Shown one piece after another: positions 1,944 through 56,826 of a stretch of 64,000 nt of DNA. A program made the position numbers and the translations under genes. The notes under the pieces were generated by a model that did not search any database, was not told the DNA's origin, and saw only the letters and a list, made by a program, of their open reading frames with translations. The first letter of the stretch is position 1; every line of letters starts with the position of its first letter. Source of the DNA: Gammaproteobacteria bacterium (GTDB taxonomy: Bacteria; Pseudomonadota; Gammaproteobacteria; Ga0077536); NCBI GenBank assembly GCA_035325705.1, contig DAOKZI010000006.1:21074-85073 (forward strand), written 5' to 3'.

Positions 1944-2250
1944 GCCGACACCACGCGAGCCGCTAGCGGCGGACGCGAGGTGGCAGCACGAACACGGAAA
2001 TGGATGAACCGGTGCCTAGCGACAGCAGTCGACTGGACATTAGCCTCCCTCCGAGACGCACTTGGGCAGGCCGGTTCCGGACTTTCCTGCGGCGACGCGT
2101 GAGCGCGCCGGGATCACCGTTGCGGGGGCAGTGTTGGCATTGCGGCCGGGGCCGCGCACCAGACTTCCCGTTTAATCCTCACCTGGCGACTCCGCCTTGG
2201 ATGAGGAACCTGCGTGGAGACACCGCTTGCCGGTGTCTGCGCGCACCATA

Positions 2251-3594: not shown

Positions 3595-3990
3595 TATCTT
3601 CGTAGCCCGGAAGCAGCGCAGCGGAATCCGGGCTCGGCATATCGGCCGGCACCGACGTTCGCTGATCGATCGCCACGGCGCTCCCGGATTCCGCGCCGCT
3701 GCGCGGCGCTGCTTCCGGGCTACGAAGATTTGTGGCTTGCCGTGAAAGAGGACGCCCCGTTCTCGTAGCCCGGGTGCAGCGTAGCGGAACCCGGGGTCGG
3801 GCATGCCTGAGACGCAAAGACTTTCGGCCCTGCGCGGGATCTTCCCGAATGCATGAGAGGACGGCGGGCGCCGATCCCGGGTTACGCGCTGCGCGCTCCA
3901 CCCGGGCTACGACACCGCCGAGGCTATGTCTCTTGCATGATTGGGGGTGATGCGCGCGCCTCATCACCGTTGGGCTGACGAAGAAAGCCC
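3595..3990. repeat. REP-like palindromic element cluster (4 units as two inverted pairs) plus a TTGGGCT...AGCCCAG hairpin motif
   Basis: Units of the form GTAGCCCGG(A/G)..GCGCAGCG..ATCCGGG / ACCCGGG sit at about 3598, 3676, 3757 and 3860. The hairpin ccgttgggctgacgaagaaagcccagcg lies at about 3958-3990. Confidence 0.8.
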
Positions 3991-5664: not shown

Positions 5665-5714
5665 GGCAGCCCGCCGGTTCCCGGCGAGCAGGCGACGAAG
5701 GACAAGAGCGTCGT

Positions 5715-5845
5715 AGCCCGGGTGGAGCGCGCAGCGCGTAACCCGGGATCCGCGCCCGCCGTCTTCTCGTGCATTCGCCGAAAGCCGTCGCGTATCGGGC
5801 ATGCCGGATCCCGGGTTCCGCTACGCTGCACCCGGGCTACGTTGT
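5715..5845. repeat. REP-like inverted pair
   Basis: gtcgtagcccgggtggagcgcgcagcgcgtaacccgggatc at about 5717, and its inverted partner ggatcccgggttccgctacgctgcacccgggctacg at about 5805. Confidence 0.8.
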
Positions 5846-6933: not shown

Positions 6934-7974
6934 ATGCGACTCGGTCTGATGCTCGGCTATTCGGGCGCGCACTACACCTTGCCGATGGACCTCGTGCTCG
7001 AGGCCGAACGGCTCGGTTATCACTCGGCGTGGACCGCGGAAGCCTGGGGTTCCGATGCGGTGACGCCCGTCGCGTGGTTGCTCGCGCGCACCACGCGCCT
7101 GAAGGCCGGCACCGCGATCATGCAGCTCGCCGGCCGCACGCCCGCCTGCGCGGCGATGACGGCGATGACTCTGGATCAGCTTTCCGGCGGCCGCTTCCTG
7201 TGCGGGCTGGGCCCGTCCGGCCCGCAGGTCGTCGAGGGCTGGCACGGCGAGCGCTACGGCAAGCCGCTGACGCGACTGCGCGAGTACATCGAGATCGTGC
7301 GCAGGATCCTCGCCCGCGAAGCGCCGTTGACCTACGAAGGCGAGCATTACCAGATCCCGTATCGCGGTCCCGGCGCGTCCGGACTCGGCAAGCCGCTGAA
7401 GAGCATCCTGCACGGCAATCCGCAGATCCCGATCTACACCGCCGGCATCTCGCCGAACGGCCTCGCCGTGGCCGGCGAGATCGCGGACGGCGTGATCCCG
7501 GTATGGATGAACCCAGAAAATGCGGACATGCTGCGCGCGCCGATCGTAGAAGGCTTCCGCCGCGGCGGTCGGCATACCGACTTCACGAGCTTCGATCTCG
7601 CGCCCTTCGTGCGCGTCGTTCTCGGCGCGGATCTCGAGGCCTGTCGCCGCCAGCTCAAGGAAGGCTTCGCGCTCTACATCGGCGGTATGGGTGCGCGCGG
7701 CAAGAACTTCTACAACGACTACGCCCGTCGTCTCGGCTACGAAGCCGCAGCGAAGCGCGTCCAGGATCTCTACCTTGCCGGCGACAAGGCCGCCGCCGCC
7801 GCGCAGATCCCCGATCGCCTCATCGACGAATGCTCCCTCATCGGCCCCGCCGCTCGCATCCGCGAGCATCTCGCGCCCTGGCGCGATGCCGCCCGCCGCG
7901 GCGAAGTCGGCACGCTGATCTTCACCGTCAACTCGGTCGAAGCGCTGCGTCTGTTGGCGGAGGAGCTGCTTTGA
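6934..7974 (+). CDS. LLM-class (luciferase-like) flavin or F420-dependent oxidoreductase
   Basis: 346 aa with a TIM-barrel LLM-like sequence (GLGPSGPQVVEGWHGERYGKP...IYTAGISPNGLAVAGEIADG). Confidence 0.85.
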   Translation: MRLGLMLGYSGAHYTLPMDLVLEAERLGYHSAWTAEAWGSDAVTPVAWLLARTTRLKAGTAIMQLAGRTPACAAMTAMTLDQLSGGRFLCGLGPSGPQVVEGWHGERYGKPLTRLREYIEIVRRILAREAPLTYEGEHYQIPYRGPGASGLGKPLKSILHGNPQIPIYTAGISPNGLAVAGEIADGVIPVWMNPENADMLRAPIVEGFRRGGRHTDFTSFDLAPFVRVVLGADLEACRRQLKEGFALYIGGMGARGKNFYNDYARRLGYEAAAKRVQDLYLAGDKAAAAAQIPDRLIDECSLIGPAARIREHLAPWRDAARRGEVGTLIFTVNSVEALRLLAEELL

Positions 7975-9362
7975 AGAAGAATCTAGCCACGGAGGGCACG
8001 GAGGAAGAAAAGGATTGATGGGCGTTTCGGCGACGCCGACGCCCCTCGTCTTTTCCCACCCGCCACCGGGCGGTTGTCCGTTCCGCGCTGCCGGACCGGT
8101 CGATGTGCATATCGTTGGCCAACCGACTATGTGATACTGCCGGCCTTCACGATAATCAATAATTAGAAGGTAGCGCCTTGTACAACAATTCCAAAAAACG
8201 TAGTTGTGGCTTGCTGTTTTCCGGTCTCCTGCTCATCTCGGCAGTTCCCGCCCACGCGGCATCCGTCAGTGCCTCGTCGGCGGTGCTGTACGACGAGGGC
8301 TGGTCGGGCCTGACTCAGATTAACGGTACGCCGGGTAACGTGAGCACGGTGAGTTATACCAATGTCAACGGCCTGGCGGCCGGGGCTTATGGGCAGGCGT
8401 CGTTCGGCGCACTGTATGCGAGCGCAAGCTCGGTTGCCGCGGGGGATCACACCCAGACACGTGGCCAAGGCTCCGCCAATTGGGCCGCCGTGCTGACCTT
8501 TTCCGACCTGGCGCTCACTGGAACCACCGCCTACGCGCACGCCAGCTTCCATCTAAACGGCGGCCTGGCTTCCTACTCCGACCCGCTCTCGGTAGGCGCG
8601 CTCGGCAATTCGACCGTCGGGGCAAGCATATTTGTCGGCGGCACAAAGGTATTTGAAGTGCTGGGGCAACTCACGTCACGCAATGGAACCATCATTACCG
8701 ATGACAAGCGCCTCGGCCTGGCGGTGAACGGGGTTTATCAGATGGATCCCACGAACAGTTTGTCCGGCACCTTCTCGTTCGACATCCCCTTTACCTTCGG
8801 CACCCCCTTCCTGATGAACGCGAGTCTGACCGCCTTCACGCAGGCGCTCGCGAGCGCGCCCGGCGATCTCGCGAGCGCCTACAGCAACTTCGGTTCGTCC
8901 GGCTATTGGGGCGGCATCGGCGACGTGCACCTGGCAGATGGCACCGTACTGAGCGGCTACAGCCTTTCTTCCGATTCCGACTTCGATTGGAGCAACGCCT
9001 ATCCCGCCGCCTCACCGGTGCCCGTTCCCGCCGCCATGTGGCTGTTCGGCTTGGGATTGCTGGGCCTGATCGGCTTTGCGCGGCGTACGCCAGGCGCGTA
9101 ACAAGTCAGAAACCGTCCGCCACTGCGTGACGAACGGTTGGCGGGACTTCCGTCAACTCTCGCTTCAGCTCTTGTTCTTGGTGACGGGCTCGCCCTGATC
9201 GGGGGACGGGTCCGGCGCTTCACCGGACGAGGCGACATTCTTCTCCAGCTTGCGCTGGCGCTTCTCTTCCATTTTTTCTTCTTTTGCAGCTCCTTCTGGG
9301 TGATTGAGTGACGGAGGTGCAGTACCAATCAATCTCCTCCTCCGTGCCCTCCGTGGCTAGAA
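7975..9362. mobile_element. MITE-like or TIR-bounded element (about 1.39 kb) carrying a PEP-CTERM protein gene
   Basis: Left end gaagaagaatctagccacggagggcacggaggaagaaaaggattgatggg (7975-8025). Right end, reverse-complemented, gaagagattctagccacggagggcacggaggaggagattgattgg (about 9315-9362). Inverted-repeat identity runs about 30 of 32 nt, with extended similarity beyond. The interior has an AT-rich promoter-like stretch at 8030-8178. Confidence 0.55.
8178..9101 (+). CDS. PEP-CTERM sorting-domain secreted protein
   Basis: TTG start. Signal peptide LLFSGLLLISAVPAHA. The C-terminus VPVPAAMWLFGLGLLGLIGFARRTPGA is the classic PEP-CTERM layout (VPxP, then a TM helix, then basic residues). Confidence 0.8.
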   Translation: MYNNSKKRSCGLLFSGLLLISAVPAHAASVSASSAVLYDEGWSGLTQINGTPGNVSTVSYTNVNGLAAGAYGQASFGALYASASSVAAGDHTQTRGQGSANWAAVLTFSDLALTGTTAYAHASFHLNGGLASYSDPLSVGALGNSTVGASIFVGGTKVFEVLGQLTSRNGTIITDDKRLGLAVNGVYQMDPTNSLSGTFSFDIPFTFGTPFLMNASLTAFTQALASAPGDLASAYSNFGSSGYWGGIGDVHLADGTVLSGYSLSSDSDFDWSNAYPAASPVPVPAAMWLFGLGLLGLIGFARRTPGA

Positions 9363-9394
9363 TCTCTTCAACTCCACGCATGGAACGGCACTGA

Positions 9395-10887
9395 ATGTTC
9401 GAAGCGGCAGAGGTCGGTCATCGGATCGAGAAAAAGGCGTTCGAGGCGGCGCTGCCGGCGCTGCGCGTAGCGCTGCTCGAGGCGCAGTGGGCCGTGCAGT
9501 CGAAGCAGGCGTTTCCCGTGCTCGTCGTGATCGCCGGCGTCGACGGGGCGGGCAAGGGCGAGACGGTCAACGTGCTGAACGAATGGATGGATCCGCGTCA
9601 CATCCGCACCGTCGCCTTCGACACGCCGACCGAAGAGGAAGCGCAGCGCCCGCGCATGTGGCGCTATTGGCAGGCCCTGCCCGCGCGCGGACAGATCGGC
9701 ATCCTGTTCGGCTCCTGGTACACGGATCCGATCGTCGCGCGCGTGTACCGGCGCGCGAAGAAGGTCGAGCTCGCGCTCGAGATCGAACGCATCAACCGCT
9801 TCGAACGCATGCTCGCCGACGACGGCGCGCTGATCCTGAAGTTCTGGTTTCACCTGTCCAAGGACGCGCAGCGCGCGCGGCTGGAGGCGATCGATCGCGA
9901 CCCGCAGCGCACCTGGCGCGTGACGCGCGCGGACTGGAAACAGTTCGAGCACTACGATCGCTACTACGCGGTCTCCGAGCACGTGCTGCGCGAGACGTCG
10001 ACCGGCTATGCGCCCTGGCAGGTCGTCGAGGGTGTCGACGAGCGCTACCGGCACCTGACGGTCGGCACCTTGTTGCGCGATGCGATCGACAAGCGTCTCG
10101 CCGCGACGCGACGGCATCGCCGGCCGCCGGCCGCGAGCTCGACGGCGCCGCTCGTCGCGCCGCTCGATGCCCTCACCGTGCTCGGACGCCTGGATCTCAC
10201 GCGCAAGCTGGGCGAGCGCAAGTACGAGCGCGAGCTCGAGCAGTGGCAGGGCGAGCTCGCCCGCCTGTCGCGTGGCAAGGGCTTCGAGAAACGCGCGATC
10301 GTCGTCACTTTCGAAGGCATGGACGCCGCGGGCAAGGGTGGAGCGATCCGCCGCCTGACCGGCGCGCTCGATGCGCGCCAGTACCGCGTCGTGCCAGTCG
10401 GCGCGCCGAACGAAGAGGAACGTGCCTATCCCTATCTGTGGCGCTTCTGGCGGCATCTGCCGCGGCGCGGCCGCATGACGATCTACGATCGCTCCTGGTA
10501 CGGTACGGGCGCGTGCTGGTCGAACGCATCGAAGGCTTCTGCACCGAAGCGGACTGGATGCGCGCCTACGGCGAGATCAACGAGTTCGAAGAAGAGCTCG
10601 TCGACGGCGGCGGCCTCATCTGCAAGTTCTGGCTGCACGTTTCGCCGGAAGAGCAGCTGCGCCGCTTCGAGGAACGCGCGCAGACGGGCTTCAAGCACCA
10701 CAAGATCACGGCCGAGGACTGGCGCAATCGCGCCAAGTGGCCGCTCTACCAGCAGGCCGCCGCCGACATGATCGAACGCACCTCGACCCGCCTCGCGTCG
10801 TGGACGCTGGTCGAAGCGGAAGACAAGCACTGGGCGCGTATCAAGGTCCTGAAGACCCTCGTTGAGCGCCTGTGCGAGGCGCTGTGA
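9395..10887 (+). pseudogene. ppk2: two-domain polyphosphate kinase 2 (PPK2) interrupted by a frameshift
   Basis: Two PPK2 domains (FPVLVVIAGVDGAGKGETV... and RAIVVTFEGMDAAGKGGAIRRL...). The reading frame switches from ORF 9395..10771 to ORF 9487..10887 at 10498-10507. There, tacggtacgg is a 5 bp tandem duplication. Removing one copy restores SWYGRVLVERIEGF. Confidence 0.6.
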
Positions 10888-10892
10888 GCGAG

Positions 10893-11115
10893 CGGGGAAC
10901 GTAGCTTGGGCTGACGAAGGAAGCCCAACGGTGATGAGGCGCGCGCATCACGGCGGTTTCGTAGCCCGGGTGGAGCGCGCAACCCGGGAGCGGCGCCCGC
11001 CGTCCTCTATGCCTTCGAGAAGACCCCGCGCGGCGCGCGCCGAGCATGGCCGCAAGCCCTTGCGTATCGGGCATGCCGGATCCCGGGTTCCGCTACGCTG
11101 CACCCGGGCTACGAA
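10893..11115. repeat. hairpin motif plus REP-like inverted pair
   Basis: gtagcttgggctgacgaaggaagcccaacg at about 10895-10930. REP units at about 10960 and about 11070. Confidence 0.75.
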
Positions 11116-23279: not shown

Positions 23280-23315
23280 ACGAAAGCGCCGAGCGGCGGC
23301 AAGCCTTGTCTTCCC

Positions 23316-23500
23316 GTAGCCCGGGTGCAGCGTAGCGAAACCCGGGATCCGGCATGTGCAATATGCGATAGCCTTCTTCTCGGATGTATGAGAGGACGGC
23401 GGGCGCGGACCCCGGGTTACGCGCTGCGCGCTCCACCCGGGCTACGACACCGCCGTTCATCATCTAGGCCGTAGGTTGGGCTGACGCAGGAAGCCCAACA
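23316..23500. repeat. REP-like inverted pair plus hairpin motif
   Basis: REP units at about 23316 and about 23408. Hairpin ggttgggctgacgcaggaagcccaac at about 23468-23495. Confidence 0.75.
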
Positions 23501-23594: not shown

Positions 23595-24767
23595 TCAATA
23601 CGAACGCGGCATGCCGAGGTTGTGCTGCGCGATGAAGTTCAGAATCATCTCCTCGGACACCGGTGCGAAGCGGAACAGGCGCTGGTCGCGCCACAGGCGT
23701 TCGAGGTGGTATTCGGACGCATAGCCCATGCCGCCCAAGGTCTGCATCGCCTGGATCGTCGCCTTGTCGCAGGCCTGCGAGGCGATCAGCTTGGCCATGT
23801 TCGACTCGGCGCCGAAGGGCTGGCCCCGATCGCACAGCGTCGCCGCCTGGTAGTTCATCAGCCGCGCGCAGCCGATTTCGGCGAAAGCCTGCGCGAGCGG
23901 GAACTGGATCCCCTGGTAGGCGCTGATCGGCGTCTTGCTGAATACGCGGCGCTCGTTGGCGAAATCGACGGCGAGCTTGAGCGCGAGATCGACCGTGCCG
24001 CAGAGACCGGCGGTGGTGACGATGCGCTCGGTGTTCAGCACGTCCAGGAGCTGCGGCCAGCCGCCGTCGAGGGTGCCGACGAGATCGGCGGGCTCGAGGC
24101 GCACGTCGTCGAAGAACACGGTCGAGGAGTCGAGCGTGTTGGTGCCGAGCTTGTCGATGCGGCCGAGGCTGACGCCCTTGCGGCCGGTGTCGATCAGGAA
24201 GAGGGAGATGCCTTCGGTCTTGCGCTTGACCTCCTCGATCTTCTTCGTGCGGCAGACGATCAGCGTGATCCCGGACGACAGCGCGCCCGTGATCCAGTGC
24301 TTCTTGCCGTTCAGCACCCAGCCTTCGCCGTCGCGGCGCGCGAAGCTGGTGATCTCCAGCGTATTGGTGCCCGCGTCGGGCTCGGTCAGCGCCATGCAGC
24401 AGACGAGATCGCCGGCGATCAGCGGCGGCAGGTATTTCTGCTTCATCTCGGCCGTGCCGTAGCGCGAGATCGACACACCGCCGAAGATCGGGTTCAGCAT
24501 GAAGAGCTGGCCGATCGTGCTGCCGCCGCCGCCGCGCGCAAGATTCTCGATCGCGAGCGCCATCTCGAGCATGCCGAGCCCGCTGCCGCCGTACTCGTCC
24601 GGCAGCGCAACGCCGCCGATCCCCGCCTCGCAGGTCGCCTTCCAGAACTCCTGCGGAAACGCCTTGCGCTTGTCGTGATCCCGCCAGTAGTCGAGCCCGA
24701 ACTTCTCACCGAGCTTGCGCGCGGTGTCGGCAATCATCTTCTGCTCGTCGGTCAGTTGAAAATCCAT
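23595..24767 (-). CDS. acyl-CoA dehydrogenase
   Basis: 390 aa with ACAD N-terminal, middle and C-terminal domain motifs (ALTEPDAGTN...; GMGYASEYHLERLWRD). Confidence 0.9.
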   Translation of the reverse strand: MDFQLTDEQKMIADTARKLGEKFGLDYWRDHDKRKAFPQEFWKATCEAGIGGVALPDEYGGSGLGMLEMALAIENLARGGGGSTIGQLFMLNPIFGGVSISRYGTAEMKQKYLPPLIAGDLVCCMALTEPDAGTNTLEITSFARRDGEGWVLNGKKHWITGALSSGITLIVCRTKKIEEVKRKTEGISLFLIDTGRKGVSLGRIDKLGTNTLDSSTVFFDDVRLEPADLVGTLDGGWPQLLDVLNTERIVTTAGLCGTVDLALKLAVDFANERRVFSKTPISAYQGIQFPLAQAFAEIGCARLMNYQAATLCDRGQPFGAESNMAKLIASQACDKATIQAMQTLGGMGYASEYHLERLWRDQRLFRFAPVSEEMILNFIAQHNLGMPRSY

Positions 24768-24835
24768 GGCTGGCTCCTGAAATGGTGTGCGCGTGGACGT
24801 GTCCGTGCATGCCCTTGGTGCCTGGAAGTCGGGCC

Positions 24836-24998
24836 ACAGAGAACACCGAGAACACCGAGGAATTCATGATTGCGCGCTCGATGGTCATACGAGCCGGGTT
24901 CCGGAGTAAGCCCCTGTTTGCCGCTCACGAAGTCCGCAAACGTTGAAGCGGCACCCACGCCTTCTCGCTCTTCCTCGGTGTTCTCTGTGTTCTCGGTG
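24836..24998. repeat. MITE-like element (family 2) of about 160 bp
   Basis: The left end cacagagaacaccgagaacaccgaggaa (24836) is inverted relative to the right end ttcctcggtgttctctgtgttctcggtggc (about 24966). These flank about 100 bp. Confidence 0.65.
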
Positions 24999-25041
24999 GC
25001 CATATCGACGGGTTCCGTAGCACCAAAGCCGAAGTGCCGGC

Positions 25042-26259
25042 TCAGCGCGCCACGAGCAGCAGCGACAGCGGATCTTCGAGGCGCGCGACGATCGCGTCGA
25101 GCAGGCGCGCGCCGTCCATGCCGTTCAGCACGCGGTGATCGCAGGCGAGCACGAGGTTGAGCTCTTGGCGCAGCGCGGGCTGGCCGGCGGCGTCGGGGCG
25201 GAATACCGCTTCGGTGCGGCCGACGCCGAGGATGCTGGCCTGGCCGGGCAGCACGATCGGGAATACGTGGCGCACGCGCGTGCCGCCGAGATTCGACACG
25301 CAGATTGCGCCGCCGCCGCTGTCCTGCGCCGTCAGGCGTCCGCTGCGCGCGCGCTGCGTGAGCTCGGCGAGCGCCTGTGCGTTGTGCACCAAGGGATGGC
25401 GGCCGACCCGGCGCGCGACGCCGACGTAGAGGCCCTTGTCCGTCGCCGCGGCGAGCGCGACGTCGCTGTCCGCGAGCTCGACGGCCCCGTCGTCTTGCCA
25501 CACGCGGCGGAACAGCGGCTCGGCCTCGAGCGTGAGGCCGACGGCCTGCACGATCCAGTGCGTGAGCGTGAGCATTTCGCAGCCGGCGCGGGCCTTCGCC
25601 TGCCGGTGCAGCTCGAGCAGCTTGCCGACCTCGGCCGCGGCTTCGAGATAGAAGTGCGGGATCTCGCGCTTGCTCTGCGCCATGCGCGCGGCGACGGTGC
25701 GCTGGGCAGCCGTCAGCGCGACGGGCTGCGCGGCGCCGGACGCGATCGCGGGCGCCGGCTGCGCGGCGCGCGGCGCCGGGATCGTGGGAGCAGTCGGCAC
25801 GTCGCAGGCCTTGATGCGGCCCTTCGGACCCGTGCCGGCGACGAGCGCGAGATCCACGCCGCGGGCGCGCGCGAGCTTGCGCGCATGCGGGGTCGCGAGC
25901 AGACGGCCGTCCCGCGCCGGCGCGGCGGATGCGGGCGCCGCAGGGGGCGCCGGCGCGGGCGCCGCGGGAACCATCGGCGCGGCCTTGGATGCCGCGGCCG
26001 GGACGCCGGCCAGCGGGCTGCCGGCCCAGGTCGCGAGCGCGGTGCCGACCTCGACGGTCTCGCCGGGCTGCACGAGCAGCTCGCCGATCGTGCCGGCCTC
26101 GTCGGCCGCGATCTCGTTCGCGATCTTCTCGGTCTCGCAGACGTAGAGCAGATCCCCGGCGTGCACGGCCTGGCCGGGTCGGACCAGCCATTCGACGAGG
26201 GTGCCTTCGGTCATCGTCAGCCCGAGCTTGGGCAGACGGATCGCGCGTTCGGCGCTCAC
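25042..26259 (-). CDS. dihydrolipoamide acyltransferase (E2) of a 2-oxoacid dehydrogenase complex
   Basis: GTG start. Lipoyl domain (CETEKIANEI), then a Pro/Ala linker, then the catalytic domain (DHRVLNGMDGARLL). Confidence 0.85.
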   Translation of the reverse strand: MSAERAIRLPKLGLTMTEGTLVEWLVRPGQAVHAGDLLYVCETEKIANEIAADEAGTIGELLVQPGETVEVGTALATWAGSPLAGVPAAASKAAPMVPAAPAPAPPAAPASAAPARDGRLLATPHARKLARARGVDLALVAGTGPKGRIKACDVPTAPTIPAPRAAQPAPAIASGAAQPVALTAAQRTVAARMAQSKREIPHFYLEAAAEVGKLLELHRQAKARAGCEMLTLTHWIVQAVGLTLEAEPLFRRVWQDDGAVELADSDVALAAATDKGLYVGVARRVGRHPLVHNAQALAELTQRARSGRLTAQDSGGGAICVSNLGGTRVRHVFPIVLPGQASILGVGRTEAVFRPDAAGQPALRQELNLVLACDHRVLNGMDGARLLDAIVARLEDPLSLLLVAR

Positions 26260-33763: not shown

Positions 33764-33784
33764 GGCTTGCGCGAGCATGAACGC

Positions 33785-33980
33785 CGGATCCCGGATTCGC
33801 TGCGCGCATCCGGGCTACGAAGAATGCGATCTTCGTAGCCCGGGTGGAGCGCGCAGCGCGTAACCCGGGATCGGCATGTCGGCGTAGTTTGAAGATCCCG
33901 GGTTCCGCTTCGCTGCACCCGGGCTACGAAAAACGCCATCGGCGTAGCCCGGATGCGCGCAGCGAATCCGGGATCGCGAC
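33785..33980. repeat. REP-like cluster (4 units)
   Basis: Units at about 33787, 33835, 33893 and 33938, in alternating orientation. Confidence 0.8.
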
Positions 33981-34461: not shown

Positions 34462-34760
34462 GGCGAGCTCGACTCTCGGGCGGGCAATTCCGCGGCCAGC
34501 ATAGTCGGGTCGATCCCGCCGAGCCTGCGCTGGGTCAAACTTTCTGCCCTGCGAACACTCCGCTTTTGAACGGCGCGAGCGCGGAAACCTCAGCGAGGAC
34601 GGCCTCCTTTCGCGCTTCACTTTCCGGAGCACCAGAGACGGCACGCGCGCTCTGCAAACACCGCAACGCGGCGCGACGCCACCCTCGTCTTCCTCGGTGT
34701 TCTCGGTGTTCTCTGTGGCAAAAACGGCGCCTCATGAGGCACCCACGGATCAGCGCCGCC

Positions 34761-37995: not shown

Positions 37996-38460
37996 AGGCG
38001 CGATTGGCCACAGAGAACACCGAGAACACAGAGGAAGAGGGGTTGATTGGGCTCTGCTTCGTCACGTCTGTGCTGACGAAAATGCCGATGCAGCAGCGTT
38101 TCTTTCCAATCTCTTCCTGTCGGCGTTCTCGGTGGCGATTCTCATTCAACGAGAAACGTAGCTTGGGCTGAAAGAGGCATAGTCCTTCAACGTGGACGGC
38201 GGTGTCGTAGCCCGGGTGAAGCGCGCAGCGCGTAACCCGGGATCGGCGTCCGCCGTCCTCTGATGCACTCGAGAAGAGCTGCCGCTGTGCGCGCCGAGCA
38301 TGGCCGCAAGCCCTTGCGTATCGGGCATGCCGGATCCCGGGTTCCGCTACGCTGCACCCGGGCTACGAAGACGGGGCGCTCTCTTTGACGGCAAGCTACG
38401 AGCTCTGCGGCAGCATCCAATCCGTCTTCTTCTCTCTGTGTTCTCGGTGTTCTCTGTGGC
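37996..38460. repeat. composite MITE-like element (family 2 TIRs) enclosing a REP pair and a degenerate hairpin
   Basis: Left TIR gccacagagaacaccgagaacacagaggaagaggggttgattggg (37996-38040). Right TIR, inverted, cttctctctgtgttctcggtgttctctgtggcc (about 38408-38440). REP units at about 38206 and 38328. Confidence 0.65.
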
Positions 38461-38487
38461 CCCTGGGCATAGCAGGGGGCACGAACC

Positions 38488-45411: not shown

Positions 45412-45960
45412 CCCTCATTCCACCAAAGCGCCGCTCCCGGGTTACGCGCTGCGCGCTCCACCCGGGCTACGAAATGCCGTGCGCGCGGTTAGCTCCCGGG
45501 TTACGGAATGCCGTGCGCGCGGTTAGCTCCGGGACTACGGAATGCCGTGCGCGTGATTGGCGCTCGTAGCCCGGGTGCAGCGTAGCGGAACCCGGGATCC
45601 CTCATTCCTTCGTAGCGCCGCTCCCGGGTTACGCGCTGCGCGCTGCACCCGGGCTACGAAATGCCGTGCGCGCGGTTAGCTCCCGGGCTACGGAATGCCG
45701 TGCGCGTGATTGGCGCTCGTAGCCCGGGTGCAGCGTAGCGGAACCCGGGATCCCTCATTCCTTCGTAGCGCCGCTCCCGGGTTACGCGCTGCGCGCTGCA
45801 CCCGGGCTACGAAATGCCGTGCGCGCGGTTAGCTCCCGGGCTACGGAATGCCGTGCGCGTGATTGGCGCTCGTAGCCCGGGTGCAGCGTAGCGGAACCCG
45901 GGATCCCGCATCACACCGGAGCGCCCGATCCCGGGTTACGATCCAGCCTTCAGGCGGCAG
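45412..45960. repeat. tandem array (about 3.5 copies) of a 153 bp unit carrying two oppositely oriented REP palindromes
   Basis: The unit starting cgtagcccgggtgcagcgtagcggaacccgggatccctcattcc recurs at about 45565, 45718 and 45871. An internal submotif aatgccgtgcgcg(c/t)g(g/a)tt(a/g)gc is duplicated within each unit. Confidence 0.8.
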
Positions 45961-46501: not shown

Positions 46502-46647
46502 GTCTCCTGCTCCCGGCAGCTTGCCGTCTCGGCGCCGCCACCTTCATTGAGACCAGTATCGACCAGTTTTGTTGCAAAGCAACATCGGTTTCATGACGGG
46601 CATCACGCCGGCGCGGCGCGGGTGAAATTCGGCCAGGGAGAATCGTC

Positions 46648-46758
46648 TTTGTAGCCCGGATGAGCGCAGCGAATCCGGGGTTCGGCGCCTGCCGAGGTAC
46701 CGGCGCGTAACTCGGACGTCGGATCTCGGATTCGCTGCGCTTCCGGGCTACGAACCGC
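46648..46758. repeat. REP-like inverted pair (CCCGGAT subtype)
   Basis: tgtagcccggatgagcgcagcgaatccggggttcggc at about 46650. Its inverted partner cggattcgctgcgcttccgggctacg at about 46725. Confidence 0.75.
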
Positions 46759-56270: not shown

Positions 56271-56312
56271 GCCGTTCGTGGCCTGTGCTGGCTGAAATGC
56301 ATTGAATCCCGG

Positions 56313-56812
56313 AGGACACGGGGAAAGACGGGATTGGCTGCGGCACAGCCCGTAGGTCGGGCTGACGAAGGAAGCCCAACGCGCACGACGTCAAATGTCT
56401 TGTAGCCCGGATGAGCGCAGCGAATCCGGGGTTCGGCGGATCATTGCGCGCAAGCGCGAGGCTTGGCGTCCGATCCCGGATTCGCTGCGCTCATCCGGGC
56501 TACGAAGATTCCGGGGCGGCCGCACGCGGAGCGGAATGTCGAACTCCTTCCAACGTGAACGGCCGTTTCGTAGCCCGGGTGGAGCGCGCAGCGCGTAACC
56601 CGGGATCGGCGCGCGTCGTCTCCCATGCATTCGAGAAGACCCGGCGCGGTGCGCGCCGGGCAGGGCCGAAAGCGCTTGCGTATCGGGCATGCCGGATCCC
56701 GGGTTCCGCTCCGCTGCACCCGGGCTACGAGAGCGGGGGGCACTTTCTTTAGCGCTGCGGAGGTTCAAACAATCCCTTTCTCCCTCCGTGTCCTCCGTGT
56801 CCTCCGTGGCTA
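56313..56812. repeat. composite intergenic mosaic: family-2 TIRs enclosing the hairpin motif and four REP units
   Basis: Left degenerate TIR gaatcccggaggacacgggg (about 56313). Hairpin cgggctgacgaaggaagcccaacg (about 56355). REP units at about 56400, 56470, 56565 and 56690. Right TIR ccctccgtgtcctccgtgtcctccgtggctagattc (about 56768-56805). Confidence 0.7.
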
Positions 56813-56826
56813 GATTCATCAGCGTC

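What the first reader, a model, noticed from the sequence alone, without database searches (positions are those of the whole stretch)
7975..9362. A PEP-CTERM protein gene sits inside an element bounded by roughly 50 bp terminal inverted repeats
The two ends are near-perfect inverted copies over about 30 nt and related for about 50 nt. The left end is gaagaagaatctagccacggagggcacggaggaag...ggattgatggg, and the right end in reverse complement is gaagagattctagccacggagggcacggaggagg...gattgattgg. They enclose only the PEP-CTERM gene and an AT-rich promoter region. Related TIRs elsewhere in the window bound small non-coding MITE-like units (24836-24998, 37996-38460, 56313-56812). So this looks like a MITE family that has captured, or mobilises, a secreted-protein gene. 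That would be a way of spreading exosortase substrates.
Basis: seen in the sequence. Interest (0 to 1): 0.7.

Follow-up and report, generated by a model that had tools for sequence, protein, structure and literature searches.

The report
PEP-CTERM gene inside a split hairpin repeat
A secreted-protein (PEP-CTERM) gene sits exactly in the loop of one copy of a very common ~150-bp hairpin repeat whose full-length relatives carry a small nuclease gene at that same spot, so the repeat's loop acts as a slot for foreign DNA, but nothing shows that the repeat has moved this gene.

Summary
The inverted repeat is real: 40 nt at 88% complementarity, with a 22-nt core identical in both arms and no such match expected by chance. 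A profile built from four unrelated short copies matches window 7979-8052 as its left half and 9299-9364 as its right half. So 7979-9364 is one ~150-bp palindromic element split at its apex by 1246 bp. The insert is a self-contained PEP-CTERM cassette (upstream region, gene, hairpin; ~8051-9137) plus 160 bp of unknown origin holding a doubtful 35-aa ORF.

Seven homologous cassettes (71-86% aa identity), in at least three other genomic contexts, carry no arms. Two distant relatives have the flanking genes adjacent. A 98%-identical strain has the same composite at the same locus. No second copy, empty site or target-site duplication was found.

The arms belong to a cross-phylum extragenic repeat family built from tandem CACNGAGNN 9-mers. 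Its 450-550-bp members carry a GxxExxY PD-(D/E)XK nuclease gene in the loop. This holds in four metagenome contexts and four of five isolate records.

The structure is right and there is a candidate cognate enzyme, but mobilisation is unproven, and a secondary insertion into a resident repeat is slightly more likely.

The parts
7979..8052 (+). Left half of the hairpin element. It runs from the terminus GAATCTAGCC, through two tandem 9-mers (CACGGAGGG CACGGAGGA) and the GATTGATGGG box, into the inner stem. It begins 4 nt after the stop codon of the LLM oxidoreductase gene.
   Evidence: nhmmer with a profile of four external short elements matches model positions 4-87, E 7.7e-14. Inverted-repeat arm found; 22-mer core.
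8053..9298 (.). 1246-bp insert sitting at the apex of the element.
   Evidence: It lies between model positions 87 and 85 of the element profile. Joining the two halves without it gives a hairpin of -83.8 kcal/mol, z = -10.2.
8051..8177 (+). Conserved upstream (promoter/5' leader) region of the PEP-CTERM gene. It travels with the gene in genomes that lack the arms.
   Evidence: blastn homology to L330 starts at 8051, to L329 at 8086 and to L086 at 8100. No sigma-70-like site was found.
8178..9101 (+). PEP-CTERM protein gene (307 aa) with a signal-peptide-like N-terminus. Weakly related to the flocculation protein PepA.
   Evidence: Pfam PF07589 scores 24.1 bits against a 20.7 cut-off. NCBIfam floc_PepA E 8.6e-07, below its cut-off. 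99 homologues found. GC 0.62 against 0.68 in the flanking genes.
9102..9139 (+). Hairpin downstream of the gene (likely terminator). This is the end of the conserved cassette.
   Evidence: Homology to L087, L088 and L331 ends at 9137-9139. The equivalent GC hairpin plus T-run is visible in L086, L329 and L330.
9165..9272 (-). 35-aa ORF (MEEKRQRKLEKN...) within 160 bp of unknown origin (9138-9298). Its coding status is doubtful.
   Evidence: Called as a gene in L001 and L002. Its cluster has only 2 members, and the other is a 54-aa version caused by an indel just upstream of the ATG. No Pfam or NCBIfam match.
9299..9364 (+). Right half of the hairpin element: inner stem, CCAATCAATC box, two tandem 9-mers in reverse complement, terminus GGCTAGAATC. 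It ends 30 nt before the PPK2 start codon.
   Evidence: nhmmer model positions 85-159, E 3.1e-9. Inverted-repeat arm found.
24824..25005 (.). Complete short element of the CACAGAGAA subtype, lying in an intergenic spacer.
   Evidence: Model positions 2-157. RNA fold -84.4 kcal/mol, z = -6.1.
38001..38462 (.). Short element (38001-38144), followed by the unrelated REP-like repeat (38205-38368) and an extra right arm (38401-38462).
34664..34723 (-). Solo right arm with no partner nearby.
56299..56819 (.). Element of the CACGGAGG subtype: a degenerate left arm and a good right half (56750-56819). Its interior is filled by two copies of the unrelated REP-like repeat.

Best explanation
Window 7979-9364 is one copy of a high-copy, extragenic, ~150-bp palindromic repeat. 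Each arm has a terminus GAATCTAGCC, 2-3 tandem CACNGAGNN 9-mers and a GATTGA box.

The family occurs across bacterial phyla. Its 450-550-bp members carry a small GxxExxY PD-(D/E)XK nuclease gene exactly in the hairpin loop. The ~150-bp copies look like non-coding derivatives of those members.

In this copy the loop instead holds 1246 bp: an ordinary, self-sufficient chromosomal PEP-CTERM cassette plus 160 bp of unknown DNA.

The most likely history is that the repeat was resident in the short LLM-PPK2 spacer and the cassette was joined into its apex. The probable route is break-and-repair at the extruded or cleaved hairpin tip. That is the same position where the family's own nuclease gene sits in other copies, and where (in 56299-56819) another repeat family sits. 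The arms are then a landing pad, not a vehicle.

Shown: one split element; the cassette boundaries; armless homologues; the link between arms and GxxExxY genes.
Inferred: the order of events, and cleavage at the apex by the nuclease.
For: - Split element: the profile halves are complementary (model 4-87 and 85-159) and abut at the apex. The fused halves fold at z = -10.2.
- Autonomous cassette: DNA homology to seven homologous loci covers only ~8051-9137. None of those loci has arms or any other flanking inverted repeat.
- At least three other contexts exist for the gene: next to a membrane-protein gene (L086, L329, L330), upstream of TauE (L085, L331) and downstream of DsrC (L087, L088).
- One locus only: the LLM, PEP-CTERM and PPK2 look-ups all return the same context. 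A 98%-identical strain has the same composite at the same place.
- Loop as a slot: GxxExxY genes lie between arms of the same subfamily in L102. The same is seen in L205, L334/L335 and L336-L345, and in Bacteroides, Sphingomonas and Bernardetia isolates. Gemmatirosa has arms on both sides but no clean flanking pair.
- The interior of 56299-56819 holds the unrelated repeat.
- Pair spacing in 240 loci is either under 200 bp or 400-500 bp, and never 500-3000 bp. A 1.3-kb load is therefore not a normal form of the family.
- The nuclease looks active: D69, E79 and K81 are invariant in 74 sequences. The AlphaFold model has pLDDT 93 and best matches Cas4 and lambda exonuclease.
Against: - No intact short element was seen at the LLM-PPK2 spacer in any relative. 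L011 and L013 are only 72-76% identical in LLM and have no arms at all. The 'resident first' order is therefore unproven.
- The PEP-CTERM cassette has no known means of inserting itself.
- The two halves are unusually intact: the stem is nearly perfect, and there are 0 of 134 substitutions between the two strains against 25 of 1425 elsewhere. This would also fit a recently arrived composite.
- The family must be, or have been, mobile to reach its copy number, so anything held between the arms could in principle be carried along.
Confidence: 0.5

Rival explanations
1. Cargo-bearing non-autonomous element, as the first reader proposed (like a mobile insertion cassette). The cassette entered the loop of an element elsewhere. 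The whole 1.39-kb unit was then copied into the LLM-PPK2 spacer, mobilised in trans by the family's enzyme, presumably the GxxExxY nuclease. One possible route is nuclease-induced breaks repaired using the arms as homology.
For: - The arms form one intact, nearly perfect pair.
- Family members do carry a gene in the same position.
- A GxxExxY gene flanked by arms whose first 26 nt equal the window's 38006 arm occurs in the same samples as this organism.
- Distant relatives have LLM and PPK2 adjacent, with neither arms nor cassette.
- The arms carry no substitutions between the two strains.
Against: - No second copy and no empty site were found.
- All seven homologous cassettes are armless.
- There is no target-site duplication.
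- No pair with a load above 500 bp occurs among 63 pairs.
- No GxxExxY gene or transposase is present in the window.
- This history needs one more event than insertion in place.
Confidence: 0.3
2. Product of recombination between two separate elements. Homologous recombination, or inversion, between the arms of two different copies brought a left half and a right half to either side of a chromosomal segment that happened to contain the PEP-CTERM gene.
For: - Arms are dense (10 in 64 kb) and similar enough to recombine.
- Solo arms exist (34664-34723 and 38401-38462), so half-elements do arise.
Against: - The two halves meet at the same model position (87 and 85) with nothing missing or duplicated.
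- They are each other's best match among all arms in the window.
- The enclosed DNA is just one cassette, with boundaries matching those seen in unrelated genomes.
- The flanking order LLM-PPK2-GST is the conserved synteny.
Confidence: 0.1
3. Two independent, unrelated repeat copies happen to lie in the two spacers either side of an ordinary gene. They would be ordinary intergenic repeats with no link to the gene.
For: The family is common in spacers and usually lies within 5-30 nt of a stop or start codon. A solo arm exists.
Against: - Each arm continues inward into the matching half of the canonical element, up to the apex.
- Neither arm has a partner of its own nearby.
- In relatives there is only one spacer here, not two.
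Confidence: 0.04

Closest known systems
Mobile insertion cassettes (MICs): IS-type terminal inverted repeats flanking passenger genes with no transposase, for example the qnrD mic elements (PMC3913671) and the Tn3-type MICs that carry TALE genes in Xanthomonas (PMC4337579)
   Same: An inverted-repeat pair encloses a non-transposition gene. The same repeats also bound short non-coding units in the same genome.
   Different: There is no target-site duplication. The arms do not end like a known IS and are built of tandem 9-mers. The related gene-bearing members encode a PD-(D/E)XK nuclease rather than a DDE transposase. No presence/absence variation or second copy shows movement.
REP/BIME repeats and their RAYT genes (REPtrons); this comparison rests on my own knowledge, with the review PMC3184786 as background
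   Same: High-copy extragenic palindromes lying next to stop codons. A single small enzyme gene is found flanked by inverted copies of the same repeat. No target-site duplication. Different repeat families are nested or clustered in the same spacers.
   Different: The units are ~150-bp hairpins with 50-65-nt arms, not 20-40-nt REPs. The enclosed gene is a Cas4/lambda-exonuclease-like PD-(D/E)XK protein, not an HUH/Y1 transposase. The arm motif is shared across phyla, whereas REPs are typically species-specific.
23S rRNA intervening sequences that carry an S23p ORF (Coxiella and Leptospira; PMC4990558)
   Same: Terminal inverted repeats form a long stem. Tandem short direct repeats lie just upstream of a small (~125-aa) ORF that sits in the loop. 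These elements are regarded as selfish and of unknown mobility.
   Different: The present elements lie between protein-coding genes, not in rRNA. The loop ORF is GxxExxY, not the four-helix-bundle S23p. RNase III excision has not been tested here.
IS elements that insert specifically into the loops of REP palindromes (IS1397 and ISKpn1; from my own knowledge, not checked here)
   Same: The tip of an extragenic hairpin repeat serves as a preferred insertion point for other DNA.
   Different: What was inserted here is an ordinary gene cassette with no transposase of its own.

Membership tests
MITE (non-autonomous derivative of a DDE-transposase IS) | Terminal inverted repeats | tested here: met
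   40 nt at 88% complementarity with a 22-nt identical core. The two halves match the element profile.
MITE (non-autonomous derivative of a DDE-transposase IS) | Target-site duplication flanking the element | tested here: not met
   The flanks of the window copy (TGAAGAA| ... |TCTTCAA) and of L171, L182, L102 and L111 show no direct duplication. The similarity outside the termini is inverted, not direct.
MITE (non-autonomous derivative of a DDE-transposase IS) | Short (under about 600 bp) and non-coding | tested here: not met
   This copy is 1386 bp and carries a 307-aa gene. The short copies of 144-182 bp (24824-25005, 38001-38144) do meet the criterion.
MITE (non-autonomous derivative of a DDE-transposase IS) | Many copies per genome | tested here: met
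   10 arms in 64 kb. Short-read contigs of four samples break at the arms: L002, L004, L333 and L334.
MITE (non-autonomous derivative of a DDE-transposase IS) | An autonomous IS with the same terminal repeats that encodes a transposase | tested here: not met
   No transposase appears among the listed Pfam families of 48 window ORFs; only the 25 families with the most matching ORFs, out of 49, were shown. Gene-bearing members carry GxxExxY (PF13366) instead.
Mobile insertion cassette (MIC) | Inverted repeats enclosing passenger gene(s) and no transposase | tested here: met
   The PEP-CTERM gene and a 35-aa ORF lie between the arms.
Mobile insertion cassette (MIC) | Evidence of movement: the same unit at more than one site, or an empty site in a close relative | tested here: not met
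   All contigs that carry the protein share one context. The 98% strain variant has the same context. The only 'empty' sites are in relatives 72-76% identical in LLM.
Mobile insertion cassette (MIC) | Terminal repeats identical to those of a catalogued IS family | not testable with these tools
   No IS reference library was available. There was no hit in 72,556 plasmids with the fused element.
REP/BIME with RAYT (REPtron) | High-copy extragenic palindromic units | tested here: met
   All 10 arms lie in spacers, usually 4-30 nt from a stop or start codon. The hairpins fold at z = -3.7 to -10.2.
REP/BIME with RAYT (REPtron) | The cognate gene flanked by the repeats is a RAYT (HUH/Y1 transposase) | tested here: not met
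   The flanked gene is TIGR04256/PF13366 GxxExxY, at E 4e-38 and 1e-43. It has a Cas4/lambda-exonuclease-like fold.
23S rRNA intervening-sequence elements | Located in helix 25 or 45 of 23S rRNA and excised by RNase III | tested here: not met
   The window has no rRNA; the only Rfam match is a cobalamin riboswitch. The elements lie between protein-coding genes. Excision by RNase III cannot be tested here.
23S rRNA intervening-sequence elements | Inverted-repeat stem with a small ORF in the loop, preceded by tandem short repeats | tested here: met
   Met by the gene-bearing members L102, L334, L336, L347 and L350. The comparison is with PMC4990558. The loop ORF belongs to a different family.
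PEP-CTERM protein (the cargo) | C-terminal PEP-CTERM sorting domain | tested here: met
   PF07589 scores 24.1 bits against a 20.7 cut-off, at residues 280-303.
PEP-CTERM protein (the cargo) | An exosortase encoded in the same genome | not tested
   None appears among the 25 listed Pfam families for the window. The rest of the genome was not available.
Flocculation protein PepA (NF033554) | Score above the curated cut-off of 80 bits | tested here: not met
   29 bits, E 8.6e-07. It is related to the family but is not a member.

The most novel reading that the evidence does not exclude
The arms define an undescribed, cross-phylum class of selfish element. It is a ~150-bp hairpin whose autonomous form encodes a minimal Cas4-like GxxExxY nuclease in its loop. 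The loop is a general cargo slot. The nuclease cuts hairpin tips, and repair templated by another copy moves whatever lies between the arms. On this reading the PEP-CTERM copy is a captured, mobilisable gene cassette, and the family is a route for shuttling single genes between intergenic spacers.
Probability: 0.2. Interest if true: 0.8.

Novelty: new variant of a known kind. Interest (0 to 1): 0.5.

Why it matters
If the loop of these hairpin repeats really accepts and carries genes, it would be a transposase-free way of inserting single, self-expressed genes into tight operon spacers. The gene here encodes a surface or floc-forming protein.

It would also give a function to the GxxExxY/PDDEXK_3 family. 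That family has thousands of members, and its function is listed as unknown in PMC3424549.

Even on the conservative reading there is practical value. The result explains why assemblies of these organisms break at such spacers. It also flags spurious N-terminal extensions (TExTE, HRxHR, DAKDAK) in annotated GxxExxY proteins.

Tried and rejected
- Rfam at gathering thresholds over the whole window, and at E <= 1 over 7900-9450 and 24750-25080: nothing apart from a cobalamin riboswitch elsewhere.
- blastn of the fused element against 72,556 plasmids: no match.
- Full-text search for six versions of the 16-mer arm: the only hit was a PCR primer in a Bacteroides fragilis paper.
- GxxExxY relatives in viral contigs: none. 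None in the window either.
- Empty-site search by exact look-up of LLM, PEP-CTERM, PPK2 and the strain-variant protein: always the same locus, or contigs truncated at the arms.
- The species-level genome representative (L010, LLM 97% identical) ends inside LLM, so it gave no information.
- A degenerate second arm just inside the left arm (8040-8075) was considered. It was rejected because that stretch is homologous to the upstream region of armless cassettes.
- The 35-aa ORF has no family, no relatives and an unstable start, so it was left as doubtful.
- The sigma-70 promoter scan of the element found nothing, and the terminator scan found only two weak sites inside the 35-aa ORF region. A sigma-54 promoter was considered by eye but not established.
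- The 20-member ORF cluster next to 'arms' in viral contigs has no Pfam family and looks like one phage lineage that matches the degenerate pattern. It was not used as evidence.
Full report
**1. The observation**

The repeat finder gives arms 7978-8017 and 9326-9365: 40 nt, 88% complementary, 1308 nt apart. The 22-mer CTAGCCACGGAGGGCACGGAGG is identical in both arms. It has one more one-mismatch copy at 56792-56813, and none were expected in 100 dinucleotide-preserving shuffles.

Between the arms lie three things:
- a 307-aa ORF (8178-9101, + strand) with a PEP-CTERM domain: PF07589, 24.1 bits against a 20.7 cut-off, plus a weak sub-threshold similarity to the flocculation protein PepA;
- its upstream region;
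- 160 bp that include a 35-aa ORF on the minus strand.

The left flank is an LLM-class F420-dependent oxidoreductase gene (6934-7974). The right flank is a PPK2-type polyphosphate:AMP phosphotransferase gene starting at 9395.

**2. The repeat family in the window**

A profile of the arms finds ten arms in the 64 kb:
- on the + strand at 7979, 24828, 38001 and 56299;
- on the - strand at 9364, 25005, 34723, 38144, 38462 and 56818.

There are two subtypes. One has tandem CACGGAGG(G/A) 9-mers, at 7979/9364 and 56299/56818. The other has tandem CAC(A/C)GAGAA 9-mers. After the 9-mers both subtypes have an AAGA..GATTGA box.

All arms lie in spacers, typically 4-30 nt from a stop or start codon. Every + arm is followed by a - arm. 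One arm (34664-34723) is solo.

The short pairs fold as long hairpins:
- 37999-38146: -59.7 kcal/mol, z = -3.7;
- 24826-25008: -84.4 kcal/mol, z = -6.1.

The two 'long' units are long because they contain a second, unrelated palindromic repeat (GTAGCCCGGGTG...AACCCGGGAT). That repeat has at least nine sites of its own in the window.

**3. One element split at its apex**

Among them, four short elements of exactly the window's subfamily were found, with the same GAATCTAGCC terminus and 144-156 bp long: L111, L171, L179 and L182.

A 164-position profile built only from these four external copies matches the window in two pieces:
- model positions 4-87 at 7979-8052 (E 7.7e-14);
- model positions 85-159 at 9299-9364 (E 3.1e-9).

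The two flanks of the PEP-CTERM segment are therefore the two complementary halves of a single canonical element, and they meet at its centre. Joined in silico, they fold into an almost perfect hairpin (-83.8 kcal/mol, z = -10.2). This rules out two unrelated repeats lying by chance on either side of a gene. The insert is 8053-9298, or 1246 bp.

**4. What the insert is**

The PEP-CTERM protein has 99 homologues at E <= 1e-5. I fetched seven loci carrying homologues of 86, 76, 76, 75, 72 and 71% identity (two loci for the 71% homologue): L086, L329, L330, L085, L331, L087 and L088.

DNA homology to the window covers ~8051/8100 to 9121/9139 only. That is the upstream region, the gene and the downstream hairpin.

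None of the seven loci has an arm, by the nhmmer profile or by the tandem-9-mer pattern, and none has any other inverted repeat flanking the cassette. They fall into at least three genomic contexts:
- beside a divergently transcribed gene (L086, L329, L330);
- upstream of TauE (L085, L331);
- downstream of DsrC (L087, L088).

The cassette is therefore a self-contained unit that exists, and changes place, without these arms. Its GC content is 0.62, against 0.68 for the flanking genes and 0.69 for the window.

The 35-aa ORF there has no family. Its cluster has two members, and the second is a 54-aa version caused by an indel just before the ATG. I treat it as doubtful.

**5. The locus in relatives**

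The window comes from ENA assembly ERZ794915, contig NODE_22 (239.8 kb). It is an uncultured gammaproteobacterium.

In species-level representative genomes with LLM 72-76% identical:
- L013 has PPK2 starting about 60 bp after LLM, and L011 about 270 bp after. Neither has arms or a PEP-CTERM gene.
- L005, L008 and L009 have a 507-aa ORF resembling a mechanosensitive channel with a cyclic-nucleotide-binding domain (assigned by eye) in that position.
- L012 lacks PPK2.

The segment is therefore lineage-specific, but these relatives are too distant to show how it arrived.

The species-level representative (L010, 97% identical in LLM) ends inside LLM. Exact-protein look-ups for LLM, the PEP-CTERM protein and PPK2 return only the same context, or short-read contigs that stop at an arm: L002 starts in the left arm, L004 ends in it, and L333 starts just after the right arm.

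A strain variant (L346, 98% nt identity) has the same composite at the same locus. It shows 0 of 134 differences in the two element halves against 25 of 1425 elsewhere. No empty site and no second site were found.

**6. What the family is**

The arm core is far more common in metagenomes than chance allows: at least 120 stretches, against roughly 7 expected by my own estimate for a 19-mer with one two-fold position. It occurs in soil, peat, freshwater and wastewater samples. A looser pattern is also frequent in viral contigs.

Among 63 inward-facing pairs in the 240 fetched loci:
- the spacing between arms is under 200 bp for 53 pairs;
- it is 250-300 bp for 2 pairs;
- it is 400-500 bp for 5 pairs;
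- it is never between 500 and 3000 bp.

Two of the five 400-500-bp pairs enclose a GxxExxY protein gene (TIGR04256, E 4e-38 and 1e-43). One of them is L102, whose arms belong to the window's own subfamily. A third GxxExxY gene (L109) lies between direct copies of the arm.

No GxxExxY gene occurs in about 1 Mb of loci chosen without regard to the motif, nor in the viral loci.

I then started from the protein instead. A homologue (P0109) is annotated as coming from a gammaproteobacterial MAG. It is found in the same sample series as the window's contigs (SRR2107128, SRR223489xx). It lies between arms whose first 26 nt are identical to the window's arm at 38006. Another homologue (P0128) sits between trpE and trpG, flanked by a CGCAGAG variant of the arms.

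In isolate records:
- the GxxExxY genes of Bacteroides finegoldii (between radA and an FAD-dependent protein gene), Sphingomonas parapaucimobilis (between fabD and fabG) and Bernardetia sp. are each flanked by 25-30-nt inverted arms of tandem 9-mers;
- Gemmatirosa has such arms on both sides of the gene, but no clean flanking pair;
- Persicobacter has none.

Gene calls that over-extend the N-terminus of GxxExxY proteins read TExTE, HRxHR or DAKDAK, which is how such tandem 9-mers translate.

Evidence that the protein is a nuclease:
- D69, E79 and K81 are invariant in 74 sequences;
- the AlphaFold model has pLDDT 93;
- its best matches among solved structures are Cas4 nucleases and lambda exonuclease.

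The family's function is listed as unknown in the PD-(D/E)XK survey (PMC3424549). I found no paper describing the arms or their link to this gene.

**7. How it most likely works**

Shown:
- There is a cross-phylum, high-copy hairpin repeat.
- Its gene-bearing members hold a small PD-(D/E)XK nuclease gene in the loop.
- In this copy the loop holds a foreign, self-sufficient PEP-CTERM cassette.

Inferred: the loop or apex is where DNA is gained. The likely cause is that the hairpin tip is cut, possibly by the family's own nuclease, and then repaired.

Two histories fit the data.
- Insertion in place into a resident short element. I put this at about 0.5. It needs no further event, and it fits the armless homologues, the single locus and the absence of other heavy loads.
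I put this at about 0.3. It fits the very intact arms and the absence of any element in distant relatives, but it needs one more event and has no direct support.

Two further histories are less likely. Recombination between two separate elements (about 0.1) and chance flanking (about 0.04) both conflict with the exact abutment of the halves at the apex.

**8. Comparison with known systems**

- The structure is that of a mobile insertion cassette (PMC3913671, PMC4337579). It lacks a target-site duplication, an IS-type terminus and any evidence of movement.
- The family behaves like REP/BIME repeats with their RAYT genes, but the units are larger and the enzyme is of a different class.
- The architecture of a stem, tandem short repeats and a small ORF in the loop mirrors the 23S rRNA intervening sequences (PMC4990558). 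The location and the ORF differ.
- It is not a classical MITE. The terminal repeats and the copy number are met. The target-site duplication, the non-coding criterion (for this copy) and a cognate transposase are not.

**9. Verdict**

Novelty: a new variant of known kinds. The more interesting lead is the apparently undescribed link between the arms and the GxxExxY nuclease, and the idea that the loop acts as a slot. Interest 0.5.

Noticed in passing
window 9395-10887: The PPK2-type polyphosphate:AMP phosphotransferase gene is frameshifted near 10455-10480. The N-terminal 342 residues are in one frame and the C-terminal 135 in another. The same 458-aa truncated product is called on six contigs from several samples, so it is probably a real frameshift and not an assembly error. 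The gene lies directly downstream of the element.
   Followed up: partly
window 3597-3920, 5710-5841, 10950-11115, 23308-23459, 33783-33930, 38205-38368, 45429-45911, 46644-46686, 56472-56744: A second, unrelated high-copy palindromic repeat (GTAGCCCGGGTG..GCGCAGCGCGTAACCCGGGAT, units of about 40-200 bp). It includes what looks like a tandem array at 45429-45911. Two of its sites lie inside elements of the first family. It gives spurious ORFs that read ...VQRSGTRDPACPIR...
   Followed up: partly
L347 (Bacteroides finegoldii), L348 (Sphingomonas parapaucimobilis), L350 (Bernardetia sp.), L336-L345, L334: GxxExxY genes with their inverted arms are wedged, co-oriented and with spacers of only 30-60 bp, between housekeeping genes. 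Examples are fabD|fabG, trpE|trpG, radA|FAD-dependent protein, adenine deaminase|mannose-1-P guanylyltransferase, and upstream of purD. In several of these the left arm ends at, or a few nt before, the start codon.
   Followed up: partly
L229 9556-13343 and L288 1263-10391 (viral contigs): Solo arms (TAGCCACAGAGRGCACAGAGGACACAGAGAAAG) recur in the same orientation as the genes, 0-60 nt upstream of start codons. They are often accompanied by a second tandem motif, AATCGTAAATCGTAAA. In phages the arm looks like a portable 5' leader and not like half of a hairpin.
   Followed up: no
L101 387-926, L142 705-1256, L180 1270-1809: A peat-soil subfamily of the arms (TGACCTCTGTGTTAAG..CTGGCCACGGAGGACACGGAGGCATTAC...) accounts for about 15-20 of the 120 metagenome stretches returned. 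In three of them it lies next to a DUF123 (PF01986) ORF.
   Followed up: partly
L002 start, L004 end, L333 start, L334 and L335 start: Short-read assemblies from independent samples break exactly at the arms. This is a practical sign of the repeat's high copy number in these organisms.
   Followed up: yes
L005 8069-9592, L008, L009: In three relatives the LLM-PPK2 spacer holds a 507-aa ORF that looks like a mechanosensitive channel with a cyclic-nucleotide-binding domain (assigned by eye, no family search run). L011 and L013 have nothing there, and L012 lacks PPK2. This spacer is a recurrent site of gene gain and loss.
   Followed up: partly
window 2052-2228 (- strand): Cobalamin riboswitch (RF00174, 55.2 bits). 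It is the only Rfam family found in the window.
   Followed up: no
window 9165-9272 (- strand): A 35-aa lysine/glutamate-rich ORF (MEEKRQRKLEKNVASSGEAPDPSPDQGEPVTKNKS) lies in the 160 bp that belong neither to the element nor to the conserved cassette. It has no relatives. In the strain variant a poly-T indel just before the start codon changes the gene call to 54 aa.
   Followed up: partly
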